Origin: an uncultured Pseudomonadota bacterium
GTDB lineage: Bacteria; Pseudomonadota; Alphaproteobacteria; Rs-D84
Assembly (NCBI GenBank): GCA_902787665.1
Contig: CADAHF010000001.1
Span: 68,757-112,781, forward strand
Direction: 5' to 3'
Length of the DNA: 44,025 nt
The notes under the pieces: model-generated
Database searches by the model: none
What the model saw: only the letters and a program-made list of their open reading frames with translations
What the model was told of the DNA's origin: nothing
Program-made: the position numbers and the translations under genes
Shown: positions 3,552-9,022 of the stretch, piece by piece
Position numbering within the stretch: position 1 is the first letter of the stretch
Layout: each line of letters opens with the position of its first letter

Positions 3552-5134
3552 ACAAATTTTTCAGGCATTAATTTGCAGATGTTTTTCCATATTCTGCGGA
3601 ATATAGTGGTGTCGGGGCTGTGATAGTATGTGTGTGGCGTGGCATCTGTTCGGTGTTGACCGTCCCAGCGAACATCATCGCCATCAATGGTGACATGCCA
3701 CGAAGTTTTTGTGTCGTCAATAATCATATCGCGCAGTTTTGCGGCGAATTCAGGACTTTCGAATATTGCGACATTTTCAGTATTGTAATAGGCGCTGCGT
3801 GGGTCCAGGTTAAAACTGCCAATCCACGAAATTTTATCGTCAAACACAATCGATTTGCTGTGCAGAACCGAAAAACCGCGTGCCTGACGTGCGCGACCAT
3901 GCTTTTTCGCACGCAGATTTTCCGCCGACAACATAAATTCATAAACATCTGCGCCCGATTTAATCAGTTCTGTGCGGTATTTTTCCCATTTTGCATAAAC
4001 GGATGCTGAATTTGTCGAAGACAATGAATTTGTAACGATTGTCACATGTACCCCAGAATTTTCTTCGCGCCGTATGTGCTCAAGCCCGCCCATGCCCGGC
4101 ACAAAGTATGCCGCCGATAAATACACAGATTGATTTGTTTTTGACCACAGGTCTTGCAGGGTTTTTATAATTTCGCCCCGATATGCTTCTTTTTGTGCCA
4201 TCGTCATTTCGACTTTGGACGGTGGATCGGCTATGAAAGTCCCGTGCCCCCAACTGAAATCGAGTTTATGTTGTTTGAATTCGCGCACGGCCAGTGATAT
4301 TACGGTGTTGTAAAGACGCTTTTCAACCGCACCACTGTTTTCTATTTCATCAAATTTCCGTTCAAGTTTTTGCATGGCGCGTTTCGTTTTTGCTTTTGGA
4401 AACACTGATGCAGGTATGGACAGTTTATGATTCCAGTATTCATCAAACGATTTTGTTGCGTATTTTGTCATTGCACCGATAAACAAAACATCGGTGTCTG
4501 AAAAGTTCGCCGATGTTTCCGGATAAAAATAGTTGCTGCCGATATTGCGACCACCGGTAATATATGCGACATTGTCCACGATAAACAGTTTGTTGTGCAT
4601 ACGGGAATTAAGACGGTTAAAGTCCATAAACAGTTGTGGCAAGAACAAAAAGCGCGAACGGTTTCGCACAGTATTAAATACTTTTACTTCTATATTAGGG
4701 TGTTGGTTCAACAGCATTACATCGGCGACATCTGACTTTGTGCCATAGTCATCAAGTAATATTCGCACCTTGACCCCACGGTCGGCGGCGCTTTTTAATT
4801 CGCCAATTAAAACCTTGGACGTTAAATCATTACTATATATATATGTTTGCAAATCGATGGTCTTGGTTGCCATACGCGCAAATGCAGCCCGCATAACAAA
4901 AGCCGATATGCCGTCGTCGATTAATGTTGCGCCACTTATGTCAGTGCCATTTGTCAATTCATTTATATAGCATTGGGCGATTGGTGTCTGCATTGGGTCA
5001 TAGTTAAAATCATCAGCAGTGATTTTTGGAACATAATTATTAAGTCTGTTGTCATGTGTATCGGTCGGTACGGTCGTGCACCCAACCAATGGCAACGCAA
5101 GCAAACACCAAGAAAGTTTTGTTGATAATAACAC
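3548..5134 (-). CDS. Phospholipase D family lipoprotein (cardiolipin synthase ClsC/YmdC-like)
   Basis: Two HKD motifs (HNKLFIVD, HSKSIVFD), GGRNIG, GSFNLDPRS; lipobox LVGC; GTG start with AAGGA RBS. Confidence 0.88.
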   Translation of the reverse strand: MLLSTKLSWCLLALPLVGCTTVPTDTHDNRLNNYVPKITADDFNYDPMQTPIAQCYINELTNGTDISGATLIDDGISAFVMRAAFARMATKTIDLQTYIYSNDLTSKVLIGELKSAADRGVKVRILLDDYGTKSDVADVMLLNQHPNIEVKVFNTVRNRSRFLFLPQLFMDFNRLNSRMHNKLFIVDNVAYITGGRNIGSNYFYPETSANFSDTDVLFIGAMTKYATKSFDEYWNHKLSIPASVFPKAKTKRAMQKLERKFDEIENSGAVEKRLYNTVISLAVREFKQHKLDFSWGHGTFIADPPSKVEMTMAQKEAYRGEIIKTLQDLWSKTNQSVYLSAAYFVPGMGGLEHIRREENSGVHVTIVTNSLSSTNSASVYAKWEKYRTELIKSGADVYEFMLSAENLRAKKHGRARQARGFSVLHSKSIVFDDKISWIGSFNLDPRSAYYNTENVAIFESPEFAAKLRDMIIDDTKTSWHVTIDGDDVRWDGQHRTDATPHTYYHSPDTTIFRRIWKNICKLMPEKFV

Positions 5135-5275
5135 TCTTTTTCCTTTGCGCTGGGATTATATCAATATTAAACCACAACACAAGATATTTCATATCGTTTT
5201 TAATAGAATAGGAAAAGGTGCTTAAAGTTAATAGAAGCATATATAAAATTTTTTTAATTTTTTGTTATTTTTCTC

Positions 5276-5304
5276 TTGTGTGACTTGGGTATATATGATA
5301 AAAT
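5276..5304 (+). promoter_or_regulatory. Candidate sigma70 promoter for the 752-aa secreted protein
   Basis: TTGTGT-N17-TAAAAT with TG extended -10. Confidence 0.45.
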
Positions 5305-5333
5305 GAAGCATACTAGAAGGGAAGGAATACGCT

Positions 5334-7592
5334 ATGAAAAGACTTGTTATTATATTAGGTGGATTGCTGGCATTGCCCGCATTTGCTGAGGTTGCGCCGT
5401 TTTATTATGATGGTGTAACTGAATATGCAGACACTGAAATGAACGATGGTGGTGCTGTCGTTGGTGACGAAATTGTTGCCGAAGAAAATTCGATTGCTGC
5501 ACCTGTTGTTCCATCTCGGCCGGCTGCTCGTGCAAGTGCAACGCGAAATGCGTCGCGTGCAACACCGTCGAATGTAACGACTGGTAATCGTGTGTCGAAT
5601 TCTCGTGTGGTTGCATCTCGTGGTGCAACGGGTGCTGTGACTGCTCGCAGTGCTGGAACACAACGTGCAACTGTTGCGCGTGCTGGTACGACTACATTGA
5701 CGACTTCTGGCGGTTCCCTGTATTTACCAAATAATACTGGTCGTGTTGGTGTTCGTGCGGCTGGATCTGTGGCGCGTGCGCCATCGGTTTCTGTATCGAA
5801 TACAACAACCGCAACGGCTGATACTGTCAAGGAAGCGACCGAAAACTTGGATAATTTGATGGAATTGACCGATTATTGCAAGGCGCAATATACCGCGTGT
5901 ATGGATAATTTCTGCAATGTCTTGGATGATAACCAGGGTCGTTGCTCTTGCAGCAAAAATGTCAAGAATTATGAAAAAACCGAAGATGCGTTGCGTGCCG
6001 CAACCGAAGAATTACAGGATGTTGCACAACGTATTCAGTATATCGGTTTGACTAATGAAGAAATTACAACTTTGTTTGCTGAAACCGAAGCGGAAACCGC
6101 GATGCAAAGCAAATCTGATAACAGTAAGTTGAAAAGTGACCTTGATCGTATTAAAAATATGATTGTTGGTGTTAAAACTGGTTCTGCAAGTGCGATTGGC
6201 GATACCGCCGGTATCAGTTTAGATTTGTCGAATCTGTTAAGTTTCAATATCGATTCAACCGGATTTGATTTGTCAGCATTGTTTGGAACACAATCACAAA
6301 ATACATCGTCCATTGGTAATCAACGTGGTGAAGCATTGTATAAAAGTGCGGCTGCACGTTGCAAATCTGCGGTGCTGACACAATGCGCGGCCCAGGGTGT
6401 TGATTCCGGGGTTATTGTGAATTCGTATGATGTTGAAATTGATAAACAATGCATCCTTTATGAACGTGCATTGACCGATTCGAATACACAGATGTCTGCA
6501 ACCGTGCGTAATGCAAAAACCGTTTTACAGAAAGCGCGTTTGATGGTTGCCCAACAAAAGAATCAATATGATTTGCGTGGATGCATCAGTGCATTGGATT
6601 CTTGTATGCAAGATGACTATGTATGCGGAACCGATTACGAAGATTGTTTGGACCCAACCGGCAAATATATTGTAGACGGTAAAGTTGTTGTTGGTTCAAA
6701 GCCAGGTTTGTCTGGTGGTGATTGGGCCAGTGACGCTGCAACCAATACAACAAGTGGTCTTTATCAGACGTGGAATGTTAATGGTAATGGCCAAAATATT
6801 TGGGCACCGGCAGAAGGGGCGCCAAAACCATATACATTGACGAATTATATAGATGAAACTGTGGAATTAGCTGCTGCTAAGGACAGTAGTTCTGGTGAAA
6901 TGTCTGTATTCTTGCAGAACAAGTTGGGATATAATGAAAATGGCAAGAATTATGGTATGTGCATTTCCATCTTGAACAAATGTCAAGATTATACATATGT
7001 AAACGGTACCTATAATGCGGAAAACAGTGTAATCAAGAATTATATGCAACGTGCATTCCGTCAGATTAAATCGGCACAAGATGAAGTTTTGGCGAACTAT
7101 GCATCAAGTTGCTTGTCTGATGTCACTTCTTGCTTAAGCCAGAACCGTTACGCGTATGATAACACCACGGATAATAACTATTCAGATGTTGCTATCCGTG
7201 CTTGCTTACCAGTTATCAATACATGTCGTTCGGTAACACTGGGTACACAAGACGATGTAGATTTGACCGAAGCTAAAGAATGGCTGGACACCTCTGGGAT
7301 AGCAAAGTATAGCAACCAAGGTATCTGTGAAGCTTCTCATGGAAGTTGGAATGCTACATCAAAATCATGTATGTGTAACTCAACAGCTTTGTTAGAAAAT
7401 GTCACAAAAGACAACAAGGTTGTATCATGTAAGTGTCCAGAGGCTACACCTGCGTGGAGTACTACCAGTGGAAAATGTGTGACTCAGGCACAAGCAAATT
7501 GTGAAGGTGATGATGGTTCGTGGAGTGGCTCAACATGTGCTTGTGGCACAGGCAAGGAATGGGATACGACTAGTTTGCACTGCAAAGCGTAA
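5334..7592 (+). CDS. Large secreted Cys-rich protein of unknown function (752 aa)
   Basis: Signal peptide (ALPAFA), Arg/Ala/Thr/Ser low-complexity tract, helical core with many Cys, C-terminal C-x4-GSW...CxC repeats; AAGGA RBS. Confidence 0.85.
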   Translation: MKRLVIILGGLLALPAFAEVAPFYYDGVTEYADTEMNDGGAVVGDEIVAEENSIAAPVVPSRPAARASATRNASRATPSNVTTGNRVSNSRVVASRGATGAVTARSAGTQRATVARAGTTTLTTSGGSLYLPNNTGRVGVRAAGSVARAPSVSVSNTTTATADTVKEATENLDNLMELTDYCKAQYTACMDNFCNVLDDNQGRCSCSKNVKNYEKTEDALRAATEELQDVAQRIQYIGLTNEEITTLFAETEAETAMQSKSDNSKLKSDLDRIKNMIVGVKTGSASAIGDTAGISLDLSNLLSFNIDSTGFDLSALFGTQSQNTSSIGNQRGEALYKSAAARCKSAVLTQCAAQGVDSGVIVNSYDVEIDKQCILYERALTDSNTQMSATVRNAKTVLQKARLMVAQQKNQYDLRGCISALDSCMQDDYVCGTDYEDCLDPTGKYIVDGKVVVGSKPGLSGGDWASDAATNTTSGLYQTWNVNGNGQNIWAPAEGAPKPYTLTNYIDETVELAAAKDSSSGEMSVFLQNKLGYNENGKNYGMCISILNKCQDYTYVNGTYNAENSVIKNYMQRAFRQIKSAQDEVLANYASSCLSDVTSCLSQNRYAYDNTTDNNYSDVAIRACLPVINTCRSVTLGTQDDVDLTEAKEWLDTSGIAKYSNQGICEASHGSWNATSKSCMCNSTALLENVTKDNKVVSCKCPEATPAWSTTSGKCVTQAQANCEGDDGSWSGSTCACGTGKEWDTTSLHCKA

Positions 7593-7627
7593 TAGACCTG
7601 GTCTAAGATTTTTCGCTACATAAAAAC

Positions 7628-7655
7628 AAACCGCCACTCAACAGAGTGGCGGTTT
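7628..7655. terminator. Bidirectional terminator inside the candidate invertible segment
   Basis: AAACCGCCACTC-aaca-GAGTGGCGGTTT. Confidence 0.8.
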
Positions 7656-7691
7656 AATACATATCAAATATGATTATTTTTCGCTATCAAA

Positions 7692-7748
7692 TTAGTCGCC
7701 CACATCGTAAGTGGTATTGATAGCATCATTTAGCCATTCTTTTGCTTC
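7692..7748 (-). other. Silent start-less alternative 3' cassette EAKEWLNDAINTTYDVGD*
   Basis: 57-nt open frame beginning with the repeat and ending in TAA; no ATG between the mraZ stop and the repeat. Confidence 0.65.
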
Positions 7749-7758
7749 TGAAGGGATT

Positions 7759-8205
7759 TTAACTAATCTTTAAATCTGGTCTTGCGTTATGCAGACGTGA
7801 TAATGCGCCGTTCTGCATTTTTGTAAATTCGTCAGGGTTCCAAATCTGAAAACTGGTTCCGCGACCAACAAATACTGCACGATCGGTTATGCCAGCATGC
7901 GCCAATAAATCAGCCGGAATCACAATACGTCCCGTTACGTCAAATTGTAATGGGCGGGCATCCGCAAATAGCATTGCCGATAAATCGTCCAATGTGCCGT
8001 CAAAAACGCCCATTTTATCGGTCGCAGACGCCAATTGTTCCATGCGTGACATTGATAACCCATCAATACATTTATTCGTAAAAGAACGGTATAAAACAAC
8101 GCCCATAAATTGTTCAGATGAAACGGCGGCGCGAAAAGATGCCGGGACGGAAATTCGACCCTTAGTGTCCAAACGATTTTCATAAGATGAGAGAAACAAT
8201 GACAT
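7759..8205 (-). CDS. mraZ: Transcriptional regulator MraZ
   Basis: Two SpoVT/AbrB motifs LDTKGRISVPASFR and FDVTGRIVIP; FQIWNP. Confidence 0.93.
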   Translation of the reverse strand: MSLFLSSYENRLDTKGRISVPASFRAAVSSEQFMGVVLYRSFTNKCIDGLSMSRMEQLASATDKMGVFDGTLDDLSAMLFADARPLQFDVTGRIVIPADLLAHAGITDRAVFVGRGTSFQIWNPDEFTKMQNGALSRLHNARPDLKIS

Positions 8206-8258
8206 TTCTTAATCTATCCTTAGGTCTTGTTGCCGGCATACACCCGCGCCACAATCGT

Positions 8259-8333
8259 AACCTAGCACACTGTTTTTTTGTTGTCAATGACAAATTATAA
8301 TTATTTTATGGGATTTTATGGTTTTGTATGTCA
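8259..8333 (-). promoter_or_regulatory. mraZ promoter plus putative MraZ operator repeats
   Basis: TTGACA(8287-8282)-N17-TAGGTT on -; 10-bp-period TATGGGA/TATGGTT/TATGTCA at 8307-8333. Confidence 0.55.
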
Positions 8334-8578
8334 AAAATAAATATTTTTAAATAAAATGAAAATATTTTATTTTTTCGCTTGACCTGCGATTCGTTTTTGT
8401 TCTATGATTGATGTATAGACAAGGAAGGAAACTTCAAAAAGCCCAGAAAACCGCCAAAAGCCGGATTTCTGCAAAAAACAAAAACGACGGGGAAAATTGA
8501 TTTCGTTATTTGTAAATACATCGTGTAAATACAAATCGACATCAATTTTACTTAAAAAAACAAAACGGAGGGACGCAC

Positions 8579-8917
8579 ATGGCAACAAAAAATATCAAAG
8601 ACATTATGATTGCCCTGAACAAGGTTTTAACAACTACTGTTTGGGTCAATAACGATCGCCAGATTATTTCACTGGCTGACGAATTGCATATCGGTAAAAA
8701 CAATTCGCCACGATCAATCGAAGATTTGGCACGACCATCATTGGTTGGTGCATATGTTTCACTGCAAATTCGCACCGATAATTTCGATGTGGCTGCGGAA
8801 AGTTTGGAAACAAAAGATTTGGCTTTGCGCGTAAAGTCAATGGTCTTTGCAGAGGCAAAGAAATTGCTGGATGCGGGCGATGTATCGTCTGAATCCGGGG
8901 TCGCAATGGCCGCATAA
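8579..8917 (+). CDS. Hypothetical protein (112 aa) ending in -AA
   Basis: GGAGG RBS, native-looking codon usage, structured UTRs; no family recognised. Confidence 0.8.
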   Translation: MATKNIKDIMIALNKVLTTTVWVNNDRQIISLADELHIGKNNSPRSIEDLARPSLVGAYVSLQIRTDNFDVAAESLETKDLALRVKSMVFAEAKKLLDAGDVSSESGVAMAA

Positions 8918-8987
8918 TTGCCCGGCGCACGTGTGCGTTGGTTTCTGGGCAATTAATCAGTTTTCCGGTTACGGAAAGGAAGGGAGT

Positions 8988-9022
8988 GCCGTCGGCGAGT
9001 AATCGCCGGCGGTTCTTGTTTT
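8988..9022 (+). terminator. Intrinsic terminator
   Basis: GCCGTCGGCGA-gtaa-TCGCCGGCGGT followed by T-rich tail. Confidence 0.7.

What the first reader, a model, noticed from the sequence alone, without database searches (positions are those of the whole stretch)
7269..7748. Candidate shufflon-like invertible segment that swaps the C-terminus of a secreted Cys-rich protein
Seen: inside the 752-aa gene, GAAGCTAAAGAATGGCT (7269-7285, codon 646 onward, EAKEWL) recurs on the opposite strand at 7748-7732 as GAAGCAAAAGAATGGCT. That is 16/17 identical with a synonymous mismatch. The inverted copy continues in the same frame as EAKEWL-NDAINTTYDVGD-TAA (to 7692), lacks its own start, and sits just behind the mraZ stop. 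A symmetric terminator (7628-7655) lies between the two possible 3' ends and would work in either orientation. Established: shufflons (R64 pilV/Rci, Mu G-segment, Bacteroides invertons) exchange C-termini by inversion between short in-frame inverted repeats. Inference: flipping the 480 bp converts the 752-aa form with a 101-aa, 10-Cys tip into a 663-aa form lacking it, an on/off switch for a putative adhesive domain of an uncharacterised protein family. No recombinase is encoded in the window, so it would act in trans. Alternatives are a frozen relic of a 3'-end replacement or an assembly mosaic of two alleles.
Basis: partly seen in the sequence, partly recalled or inferred. Interest (0 to 1): 0.88.

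Follow-up and report, generated by a model that had tools for sequence, protein, structure and literature searches.

The report
Leftover inverted copy of gene's end
The short inverted repeat is real and marks a trimmed, silent, inverted copy of the 3' end of a secreted cysteine-rich protein gene; sister strains carry a much longer copy that could swap the protein's tail, but in this genome the switch looks frozen.

Summary
The 16/17 inverted repeat (7269-7285 / 7732-7748) and the in-frame minus-strand cassette are exactly as described. On numbers alone such a repeat is at chance level. Relatives show it is not chance.

An independent metagenome contig (L027, 92.7% identical) has the same architecture, including the same mismatch. 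In sister strains the two arms share 41 nt. In one public run (X4) and one contig (L058) they form a 494-bp inverted repeat, window 6816-7268 plus 41 nt, around a 407-bp core. A 666-aa full-length protein, 96% identical, ends with precisely the predicted short tail.

So the alternative C-terminus is genuine. The cassette is the remnant of an inverted partial duplication of the gene's 3' end.

No site-specific shufflon is supported. The site occurs only twice, no recombinase lies in the window, and all 3 assemblies with short arms sit in the long-tail orientation. With 494-bp arms short reads cannot fix the core's orientation.

Most likely, tails are exchanged by homologous recombination in long-arm strains, and G000 is a near-locked long-tail variant. 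No raw reads were available, so switching within one population is untested.

The parts
5334..7592 (+). 752-aa secreted-looking Cys-rich protein gene, long-tail form. No Pfam family. Member of a multi-copy family specific to this group of gut Alphaproteobacteria.
   Evidence: ORF. 0 Pfam hits at E<=0.01. 13 matches in G000 and matches in 24 of 24 same-genus genomes drawn. 1192 database relatives at E<=1e-10; the few that carry a name are 'Alphaproteobacteria bacterium' MAG proteins.
6816..7268 (+). Segment 'A'. Single-copy in G000. Present a second time, inverted and next to mraZ, in sister strains, where it forms most of a 494-bp inverted repeat.
   Evidence: L058 homology to the window starts exactly at 6816. 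The contig of X2 ends at 6815 and that of X4 at 6816. X4 record 26 is 494 nt at depth 35.1, against 17.6 for the core contig.
7269..7285 (+). Inverted-repeat arm 1, codons 646-651 (EAKEWL).
7287..7592 (+). Long tail: 101 aa with 10 Cys, plus stop.
   Evidence: Conserved in L027.
7627..7656 (-). Hairpin terminator. Perfect 12-bp stem, with a T-run only on the minus-strand (mraZ) side.
7692..7730 (-). Silent short tail: 12 codons plus TAA, with no start or promoter of its own.
   Evidence: Read. Identical in L027. It is the actual C-terminus of P0004 and of the L058 frame.
7732..7748 (-). Inverted-repeat arm 2, 16/17 identical to arm 1.
   Evidence: The same arm with the same mismatch is in L027.
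7759..8205 (-). mraZ, convergent with the big gene.
   Evidence: Pfam MraZ, E 7e-19. The convergent arrangement is kept in 7 of the 8 genus loci that hold mraZ.

Best explanation
The 17-nt arm plus the 12-codon cassette behind mraZ is the trimmed remnant of an inverted, promoter-less partial duplicate of the gene's own 3' end, that is, a silent alternative tail.

Within the same species the duplicate exists in graded sizes:
- 17 nt shared (G000, L027).
- About 41 nt shared (X3). Here the long tail also begins with the cassette's first 7-8 residues.
- 494 nt shared (X4, L058; probably X2). This is window 6816-7268 plus 41 nt, flanking a 407-bp core that carries the short tail at one end and the Cys-rich tail at the other.

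In long-arm strains both junctions, body-to-short-tail and body-to-long-tail, are always present. Inversion of the core, or gene conversion, by ordinary homologous recombination decides which tail sits on the full-length gene. RecA is encoded in G000. This step is inferred, not shown.

In G000 the arms are too short for efficient homologous recombination. No dedicated recombinase or extra site is evident. G000 is therefore most likely fixed, or nearly so, in the 752-aa long-tail state.
For: - Independent assembly L027 (92.7% nt identity over 5.2 kb) has the same layout and the same 16/17 arms. It has no difference from G000 between 7602 and 7776.
- In L058 the long tail starts with the cassette's residues, so the arms share 41 nt. 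An 82-nt perfect inverted repeat reaches the contig end.
- L058 carries mraZ, then about 110 nt, then a copy of window 6816-7283 with stops upstream in frame, then the short tail, terminator, reversed Cys tail and reversed arm.
- In X4 the 494-nt contig runs exactly from 6816 to the end of the 41-nt shared part. Its 26 extra letters equal L058 900-925. Its depth is 35.1.
- The X4 core contig is 467 nt, which is 30+407+30, at depth 17.6. That is a 2:1 ratio, with the core bounded on both sides by the same repeat.
- The X2 contig joins 6815-7283 to 7733->7592 on the opposite strand.
- P0004 is a full-length short form.
- Both tail types are natural ends in orthologues: 5 short and 12 long among 17 complete genus loci.
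- RecA is present.
- All 3 short-arm assemblies are in the long-tail orientation.
Against: - No read-level data exist. All 22 runs offered are kept as contigs, so no orientation mixture within one population was shown or excluded.
- The left junction of L058 (mraZ, 110 nt, copy) rests on one 1.4-kb contig that folds back at its end. The 110 nt match nothing else held. The expected branch from the true upstream gene is missing in that contig.
- The X4 upstream contig has depth 24.6, not 17.6, so strain mixtures contribute to the depths.
- With 494-bp arms the orientation in P0004's contig may be the assembler's choice. Its DNA could not be fetched.
- The direction of evolution (trimming a long copy versus extending a short one) is inferred.
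- The perfect conservation of 7602-7776 between G000 and L027 could also mean constraint on a functional site. However, 8000-8900 is equally conserved.
Confidence: 0.55

Rival explanations
1. One reading: an active, recombinase-driven inverton (shufflon-like, 'partial intergenic'). A trans-acting invertase flips 7269-7748 at the 17-nt arms, in G000 too, toggling the 752-aa and 663-aa forms.
For: - The arms are in frame and the mismatch is synonymous.
- The arm and cassette are perfectly conserved in L027 despite 7% divergence elsewhere.
- The short form exists as a full-length protein.
- G000 encodes candidate enzymes on other contigs: a 208-aa serine recombinase with an HTH, and three tyrosine recombinases.
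- The hairpin lies between the two possible 3' ends.
Against: - The site occurs only twice in the genome, and no recombinase lies on contig C1.
- The serine recombinase sits in a prophage-like block with an integrase and methylases.
- 3 of 3 short-arm assemblies are in the same orientation, and no inverted joint was seen in X1 or X3.
- The inverted joints that were seen are accounted for by the 494-bp duplicate.
- The arm length varies between strains (17, 41, 494 nt). This behaves like homology, not like a fixed recognition site.
- 17-nt repeats of this quality are at chance frequency.
Confidence: 0.15
2. Pure relic. The cassette and the longer copies are decaying fragments of a lost convergent paralogue or a recent segmental duplication. 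No tail switching happens in any strain, and P0004 is an assembler's arbitrary path.
For: - The orientation in long-arm strains is unresolved.
- The partial copy in L058 has in-frame stops upstream.
- No comparable repeat was found at the other 9 family matches scanned in G000, or at the 18 orthologous genus loci scanned.
- The spacer behind mraZ is not conserved in other species.
Against: - The two 494-nt copies in X4 collapse into one unitig with no bubble, although strains differ by 3-8% in this region. This points to ongoing homogenisation or a very recent origin.
- The 41-nt shared part in X3/L058 against 17 nt in G000/L027 implies gene conversion between the tails.
- A long perfect inverted repeat together with RecA is expected, from general knowledge, to invert its core.
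Confidence: 0.22
3. Chance repeat or MAG assembly mosaic.
For: The genome-wide frequency of such repeats equals that of shuffles.
Against: - The same architecture is in independent contig L027. The X1 contigs span both junctions.
- The arms are longer in sister strains.
- The cassette equals the real C-terminus of P0004.
Confidence: 0.03

Closest known systems
Gene-altering ('partial intergenic') invertons and shufflons (R64 pilV/Rci; Mu/P1 tail-fibre G/C segments; Milman et al. 2023 as cited in Chanin et al., preprint PMC10028968, passages read)
   Same: One repeat arm lies inside the gene and the other downstream. The inverted copy continues in frame, so inversion would exchange the C-terminus of a surface or secreted protein.
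   Different: - There is no adjacent recombinase and there are only two sites.
- Arm length varies from 17 to 494 nt among strains.
- Both orientations in one population were not shown.
- The R64, Mu and P1 details are recalled, not tested here.
RecA-dependent inversion or gene conversion between an expressed surface-protein gene and silent partial copies (Campylobacter fetus sap; Anaplasma msp2 and Neisseria pilS pseudogene cassettes). Recalled from general knowledge, no paper read here.
   Same: There is a promoter-less partial copy that shares a long identical block with the expressed gene and differs in a terminal variable part. RecA is present. The copies look homogenised.
   Different: - Here the 3' end is exchanged, not the 5' end or a central hypervariable region.
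- There is a single cassette with only two alternative tails.
- In G000 the shared block has shrunk to 17 nt.
- Switching is unobserved.
Inverted-repeat flip-flop of a unique core (plastid IR/SSC isomers, rrn-mediated inversions). Recalled.
   Same: There is a long perfect inverted repeat around a short core. The core's orientation is unresolvable by short reads, and both junction types are always present.
   Different: Here the repeat boundary lies inside a coding sequence, so the two isomers encode different proteins.

Membership tests
Shufflon (Rci-type multiple inversion system) | Several invertible segments separated by three or more copies of the recombination site | tested here: not met
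   The 17-mer, allowing up to 2 mismatches, occurs twice in the window. A short-word BLAST of 7650-7775 against all 29 contigs finds no other copy longer than 14 nt.
Shufflon (Rci-type multiple inversion system) | Dedicated site-specific recombinase gene next to the invertible region | tested here: not met
   PF00589 hits lie on C3, C6 and C13. The PF00239 hit lies on C13. None lies on C1, which holds the window.
Shufflon (Rci-type multiple inversion system) | In-frame alternative C-terminal segments for one constant N-terminal gene body | tested here: met
   The frame was read. P0004 is the full-length body with the cassette as its C-terminus.
Partial intergenic inverton (PhaseFinder/PhaVa sense) | Inverted repeats with one arm in the gene and one outside | tested here: met
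Partial intergenic inverton (PhaseFinder/PhaVa sense) | Reads supporting both orientations within one sample or clone | not testable with these tools
   All 22 runs found are kept as contigs only. Contigs of X1 and X3 show only the reference orientation. X2, X4 and L058 are ambiguous because of the long duplicate.
Hin/Gin/Cin/Pin serine-invertase systems | Small serine invertase encoded beside the segment | tested here: not met
   The only PF00239 protein (208 aa, Resolvase plus HTH) is on C13, inside a prophage-like block.
Hin/Gin/Cin/Pin serine-invertase systems | 26-bp sites with internal dyad symmetry, and an enhancer | not tested
   No comparison with hix/gix sites was run.
Silent-cassette recombination systems (expression site plus promoter-less partial copies) | Partial copy lacking a start, sharing a long identical block with the expressed gene and differing in a variable end | tested here: met
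   Met in sister strains: L058 and X4, with a 494-nt repeat at twice the core depth. In G000 itself the shared block is only 17 nt.
Silent-cassette recombination systems (expression site plus promoter-less partial copies) | Homologous-recombination machinery present | tested here: met
   RecA is at G000 C3:32559-33341, E 3e-140.
Silent-cassette recombination systems (expression site plus promoter-less partial copies) | Observed exchange: the same strain expressing different ends | tested here: inconclusive
   Long form in G000, L027 and X3. Short form in P0004. P0004's orientation may be an assembler's choice, and its contig could not be read.

The most novel reading that the evidence does not exclude
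The species carries a recombinase-independent C-terminal tail switch. A 494-bp inverted copy of the gene's 3' part lets RecA flip a 407-bp core, alternating a 101-aa 10-Cys tail with a 12-aa tail on a major surface-type protein. Natural strains form a series (494, 41, 17 nt arms) from freely switching to locked. G000 is a naturally 'locked-long' variant. This would give ready-made locked and unlocked pairs for asking what the Cys-rich tail does in the gut.
Probability: 0.3. Interest if true: 0.55.

Novelty: new member of a known kind. Interest (0 to 1): 0.42.

Why it matters
The organism is an uncultured gut alphaproteobacterium with a reduced genome (0.8 Mb). It keeps 10-20 copies per genome of an uncharacterised secreted Cys-rich protein family.

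If the tail exchange is real, it is a simple and testable case of surface variation in this group. It would also show how such switches decay: the arms shrink from 494 to 17 nt, leaving the kind of short in-frame inverted repeat that sequence-only scans flag.

Practically, the case warns in two ways:
- A short in-frame inverted repeat can be a relic rather than a recombinase site.
- 'Inverted' junctions in short-read contigs can come from a second silent copy rather than from inversion.

Tried and rejected
- Chance repeat. It was considered first because shuffles give as many 17-nt repeats. It was rejected after L027, L058 and P0004.
- Conservation of the cassette in other species. The spacer behind mraZ differs in all 8 genus loci examined, and tblastn with the cassette peptide hit only G000. 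This argues against an old conserved device but not against a species-level one.
- Same device at other loci. No repeat of 16 nt or more was found at the 9 other family matches scanned in G000, of which 2 run off their contigs. None was found at 18 genus loci. Among the 45 metagenome loci, only L027 and L058 had repeats better than chance-like 14-16-mers.
- Standalone ORFs made of the Cys tail, which would mark a flipped silent copy. None was found among proteins of 55-177 aa. This is no evidence of absence, because such a copy has no start.
- Short ORFs made of segment A. P0122 (154 aa, on an 880-nt contig) ends in the short tail, but it is just a contig-edge call. P0127 (244 aa, another species) could not be placed; the best match in 257 genomes is 74% identical.
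- Same-species genomes among the 257 genus representatives. None has near-identical DNA.
- The 110 nt of L058 between mraZ and the copy match nothing held.
- I first read the X2 'opposite strands' joint as proof of inversion. I withdrew that once the 6816 boundary, the 494-nt and 467-nt contig lengths and the 2:1 depth in X4 showed a long duplicate.
- Parts of X2 without cover (7284-7576, 7734-7942) are not used as evidence.
- The ESM Atlas lead to TraN-like proteins (score 0.80, below the tool's reliability line) has no Pfam support. It is not adopted.
- Contig ends at 7577-7595 in X1 and X2 probably reflect the strain indel at 7589-7590 (table 4). This is not proven.

Tools not available:
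- The look-up of encoding contigs is stated closed and was not called.
- Supplementary files of papers were not consulted.
Full report
**Observation**

Arm 1 is at 7269-7285 (+) and arm 2 at 7748-7732 (-), 16 of 17 identical. Arm 1 is codons 646-651 (EAKEWL) of the 752-aa ORF 5334-7592.

On the minus strand the same six codons are followed by 12 codons and TAA (7730-7692). This frame opens only at 7769 and has no start. It begins 10 nt after the stop of mraZ (7759-8205, Pfam MraZ E 7e-19).

The hairpin 7628-7655 has a perfect 12-bp stem. The terminator scan scores it only for the minus strand.

Taken alone the repeat is not remarkable. The 793-kb genome has 12 loci with a 17-nt inverted repeat of at most 1 mismatch spaced 50-1000 bp (32 overlapping hits). 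Ten Markov shuffles gave 1-16 hits, mean about 9.

**What the gene is**

The protein has a signal-peptide-like N-terminus (by eye) and no Pfam family. It belongs to a large paralogous family. There are 13 matches in G000 and matches in 24 of 24 same-genus genomes drawn. There are 1192 database relatives at E<=1e-10; the few named ones are hypothetical proteins of 'Alphaproteobacteria bacterium' MAGs.

G000 is a 0.79-Mb, 29-contig genome. Public runs that hold the locus are recorded as cattle, goat or other gut metagenomes.

Orthologues sit convergent with mraZ in 7 of the 8 genus loci that hold mraZ. Among 17 complete genus orthologues, 5 stop 13-25 residues after the conserved Trp, and 12 carry longer, mostly Cys-rich tails. 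One long tail (L021) starts EWLDDAVNTS, like the cassette. Both kinds of end are thus natural in the family.

**Not chance, not an assembly mosaic**

An independent metagenome contig, L027, is 92.7% identical over 5.2 kb. It has the same layout, the same two arms with the same mismatch, and no difference from G000 between 7602 and 7776.

In the probable source run X1, one contig spans 6400-7595 and another spans 7577-8785. Both junctions of the reference arrangement are therefore assembled there.

**The short tail is used, or at least attached to the gene body, in sister strains**

The protein search found P0004. It is 666 aa, 96% identical to residues 1-651, and ends with exactly the cassette's 12 residues. 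The 3 extra residues are an indel upstream.

In run X2 a 615-nt contig joins 6815-7283 to 7733->7592 on the opposite strand. In X4 a 494-nt contig covers 6816-7283 and then reads 26 letters of the cassette type.

Metagenome contig L058 (1414 nt) encodes ...EAKEWL, the 12 residues and a stop. This is followed by the spacer, the hairpin, the reversed Cys tail and the reversed arm.

**Why these junctions do not prove inversion**

Three details point to a second, silent copy of the gene's 3' part in these strains:

- *L058 layout.* L058 begins with the 3' part of mraZ on the same strand. It then has about 110 nt found nowhere else. It then has a copy of the gene that starts exactly at window 6816, with stops upstream in frame. 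The X2 contig ends at 6815 and the X4 contig at 6816, the same nucleotide.
- *Extended shared region.* In L058 the long tail also begins with the cassette's residues, so the arms share 41 nt. The X4 contig ends exactly at the end of that shared part; its 26 letters equal L058 900-925.
- *Contig lengths and depths in X4.* The 494-nt contig has depth 35.1. The core contig is 467 nt, that is the 407-nt core of L058 (926-1332) plus 30 nt of k-1 overlap at each end, at depth 17.6.

This is the graph of a 494-bp inverted repeat present twice around a 407-bp single-copy core. In such a genome both junctions exist permanently. Short reads cannot tell which tail is on the full-length gene. The orientation in L058, and possibly in P0004's 99-kb contig, may be the assembler's choice.

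Caveats:

- L058 is a single short contig that folds back over its last 82 nt.
- The branch from the true upstream gene is missing in L058.
- The X4 upstream contig has depth 24.6, so strain mixtures contribute.

**A graded series**

- G000 and L027 share 17 nt between the arms.
- X3 has the G000 layout: one contig runs 6883-7929 without a second copy. At 7284-7289 it reads the cassette-type letters, so its arms are longer, about 41 nt.
- X4 and L058 share 494 nt.

All three short-arm assemblies are in the long-tail orientation.

No comparable repeat was found in three scans:

- the 9 other family matches scanned in G000;
- the 18 orthologous genus loci scanned;
- the other 43 metagenome loci.

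No genome among 257 genus representatives has near-identical DNA. The device is therefore confined to this species-level group.

**Mechanism**

G000 encodes RecA. It also encodes three tyrosine recombinases. Two are of XerC/D size, which is my inference. One is a phage-type integrase. There is one 208-aa serine recombinase with an HTH. The serine recombinase and the integrase lie in a prophage-like block on C13. None lies on the window's contig. The 17-mer has no third copy.

Three observations fit recombination driven by homology rather than by a recognition site:

- the arm length varies between strains;
- the two 494-nt copies are identical in a region where strains differ by 3-8%;
- the shared part is extended by 24 nt in some strains.

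My reading is therefore as follows. The cassette is a silent, inverted partial duplicate of the 3' end. In long-arm strains the core can be inverted or converted by homologous recombination, exchanging a 101-aa 10-Cys tail for a 12-aa tail. This step is inferred. In G000 the duplicate has been trimmed to 17+39 nt and the gene is effectively fixed in the long form.

An active trans-acting invertase at the 17-nt arms is not excluded, but nothing found here calls for it.

**Comparison with known systems**

Gene-altering inversions with one arm inside a gene are well documented. They are called 'partial intergenic invertons' or shufflons: 733 were reported by Chanin et al., and over 11,000 were predicted by Milman et al. 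as cited there (preprint PMC10028968, passages read).

The present case shares the in-frame C-terminal exchange. It fails the shufflon criteria of multiple sites and an adjacent recombinase. It works more like silent-cassette or inverted-repeat flip-flop systems (recalled: C. fetus sap, Anaplasma msp2). It is a new member of a known kind, in an uncharacterised protein family of an uncultured gut alphaproteobacterium.

**Limits**

- No raw reads were available.
- Supplements of papers were not seen.

Noticed in passing
window 7765-9015; L022 (G005:C7) 4763-6190: In the nearest species (G005; protein 71% identical) the block holding mraZ and the 112-aa ORF is inverted relative to G000. In G005 the block is flanked by two copies (23/25) of the same palindromic terminator hairpin. 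mraZ is frameshifted there.
   Followed up: partly
window 6700-6900: A hypervariable stretch lies inside the big gene. It is 67-69% identical between G000 and L027, against 92.7% overall. X3 replaces 6726-6883 with 159 other letters. The outer boundary of the 494-bp duplicate (6816) lies inside this stretch.
   Followed up: partly
window 8206-8950: The intergenic region upstream of mraZ and the 112-aa ORF 8579-8917 (no Pfam, no Rfam match) are 96-100% identical between G000 and L027, and about 80% identical to G005. Whether this is a small protein, an RNA or a regulatory region is unknown.
   Followed up: partly
G000 C13:2025-9564 (L025, L026): A prophage-like or integrative block. It holds two methylase-like ORFs, a 208-aa serine recombinase (Resolvase plus HTH), a possible small-terminase-like ORF (my guess from its sequence), a 412-aa phage-type integrase and tRNA-like sequence.
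   Followed up: partly
L058 328-440: About 110 nt lie between mraZ and the partial gene copy. They contain an 11-12-bp hairpin with a loop of about 55 nt and match nothing else held. Origin unknown.
   Followed up: partly
G000 C3:12657-13087; C9:22813-23450: These are other inverted repeats from the genome-wide count. On C3 two copies of a roughly 30-nt palindromic hairpin lie 430 nt apart. On C9 two colinear 17-nt repeats suggest a longer, diverged inverted duplication.
   Followed up: no
window 7577-7605: Contigs of X1 and X2 end at 7577-7595, next to a 13-nt palindrome and a strain indel at 7589-7590. This is probably strain heterogeneity, not shown.
   Followed up: no
window 7759-8205: mraZ is followed on its strand by a terminator and the convergent big gene, not by rsmH. 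The location of the rest of the dcw cluster was not looked for.
   Followed up: no
window 5334-7592: The ESM Atlas's nearest cluster is named 'TraN family' (score 0.80, below the tool's reliability line). No Pfam TraN hit. A weak lead only.
   Followed up: partly
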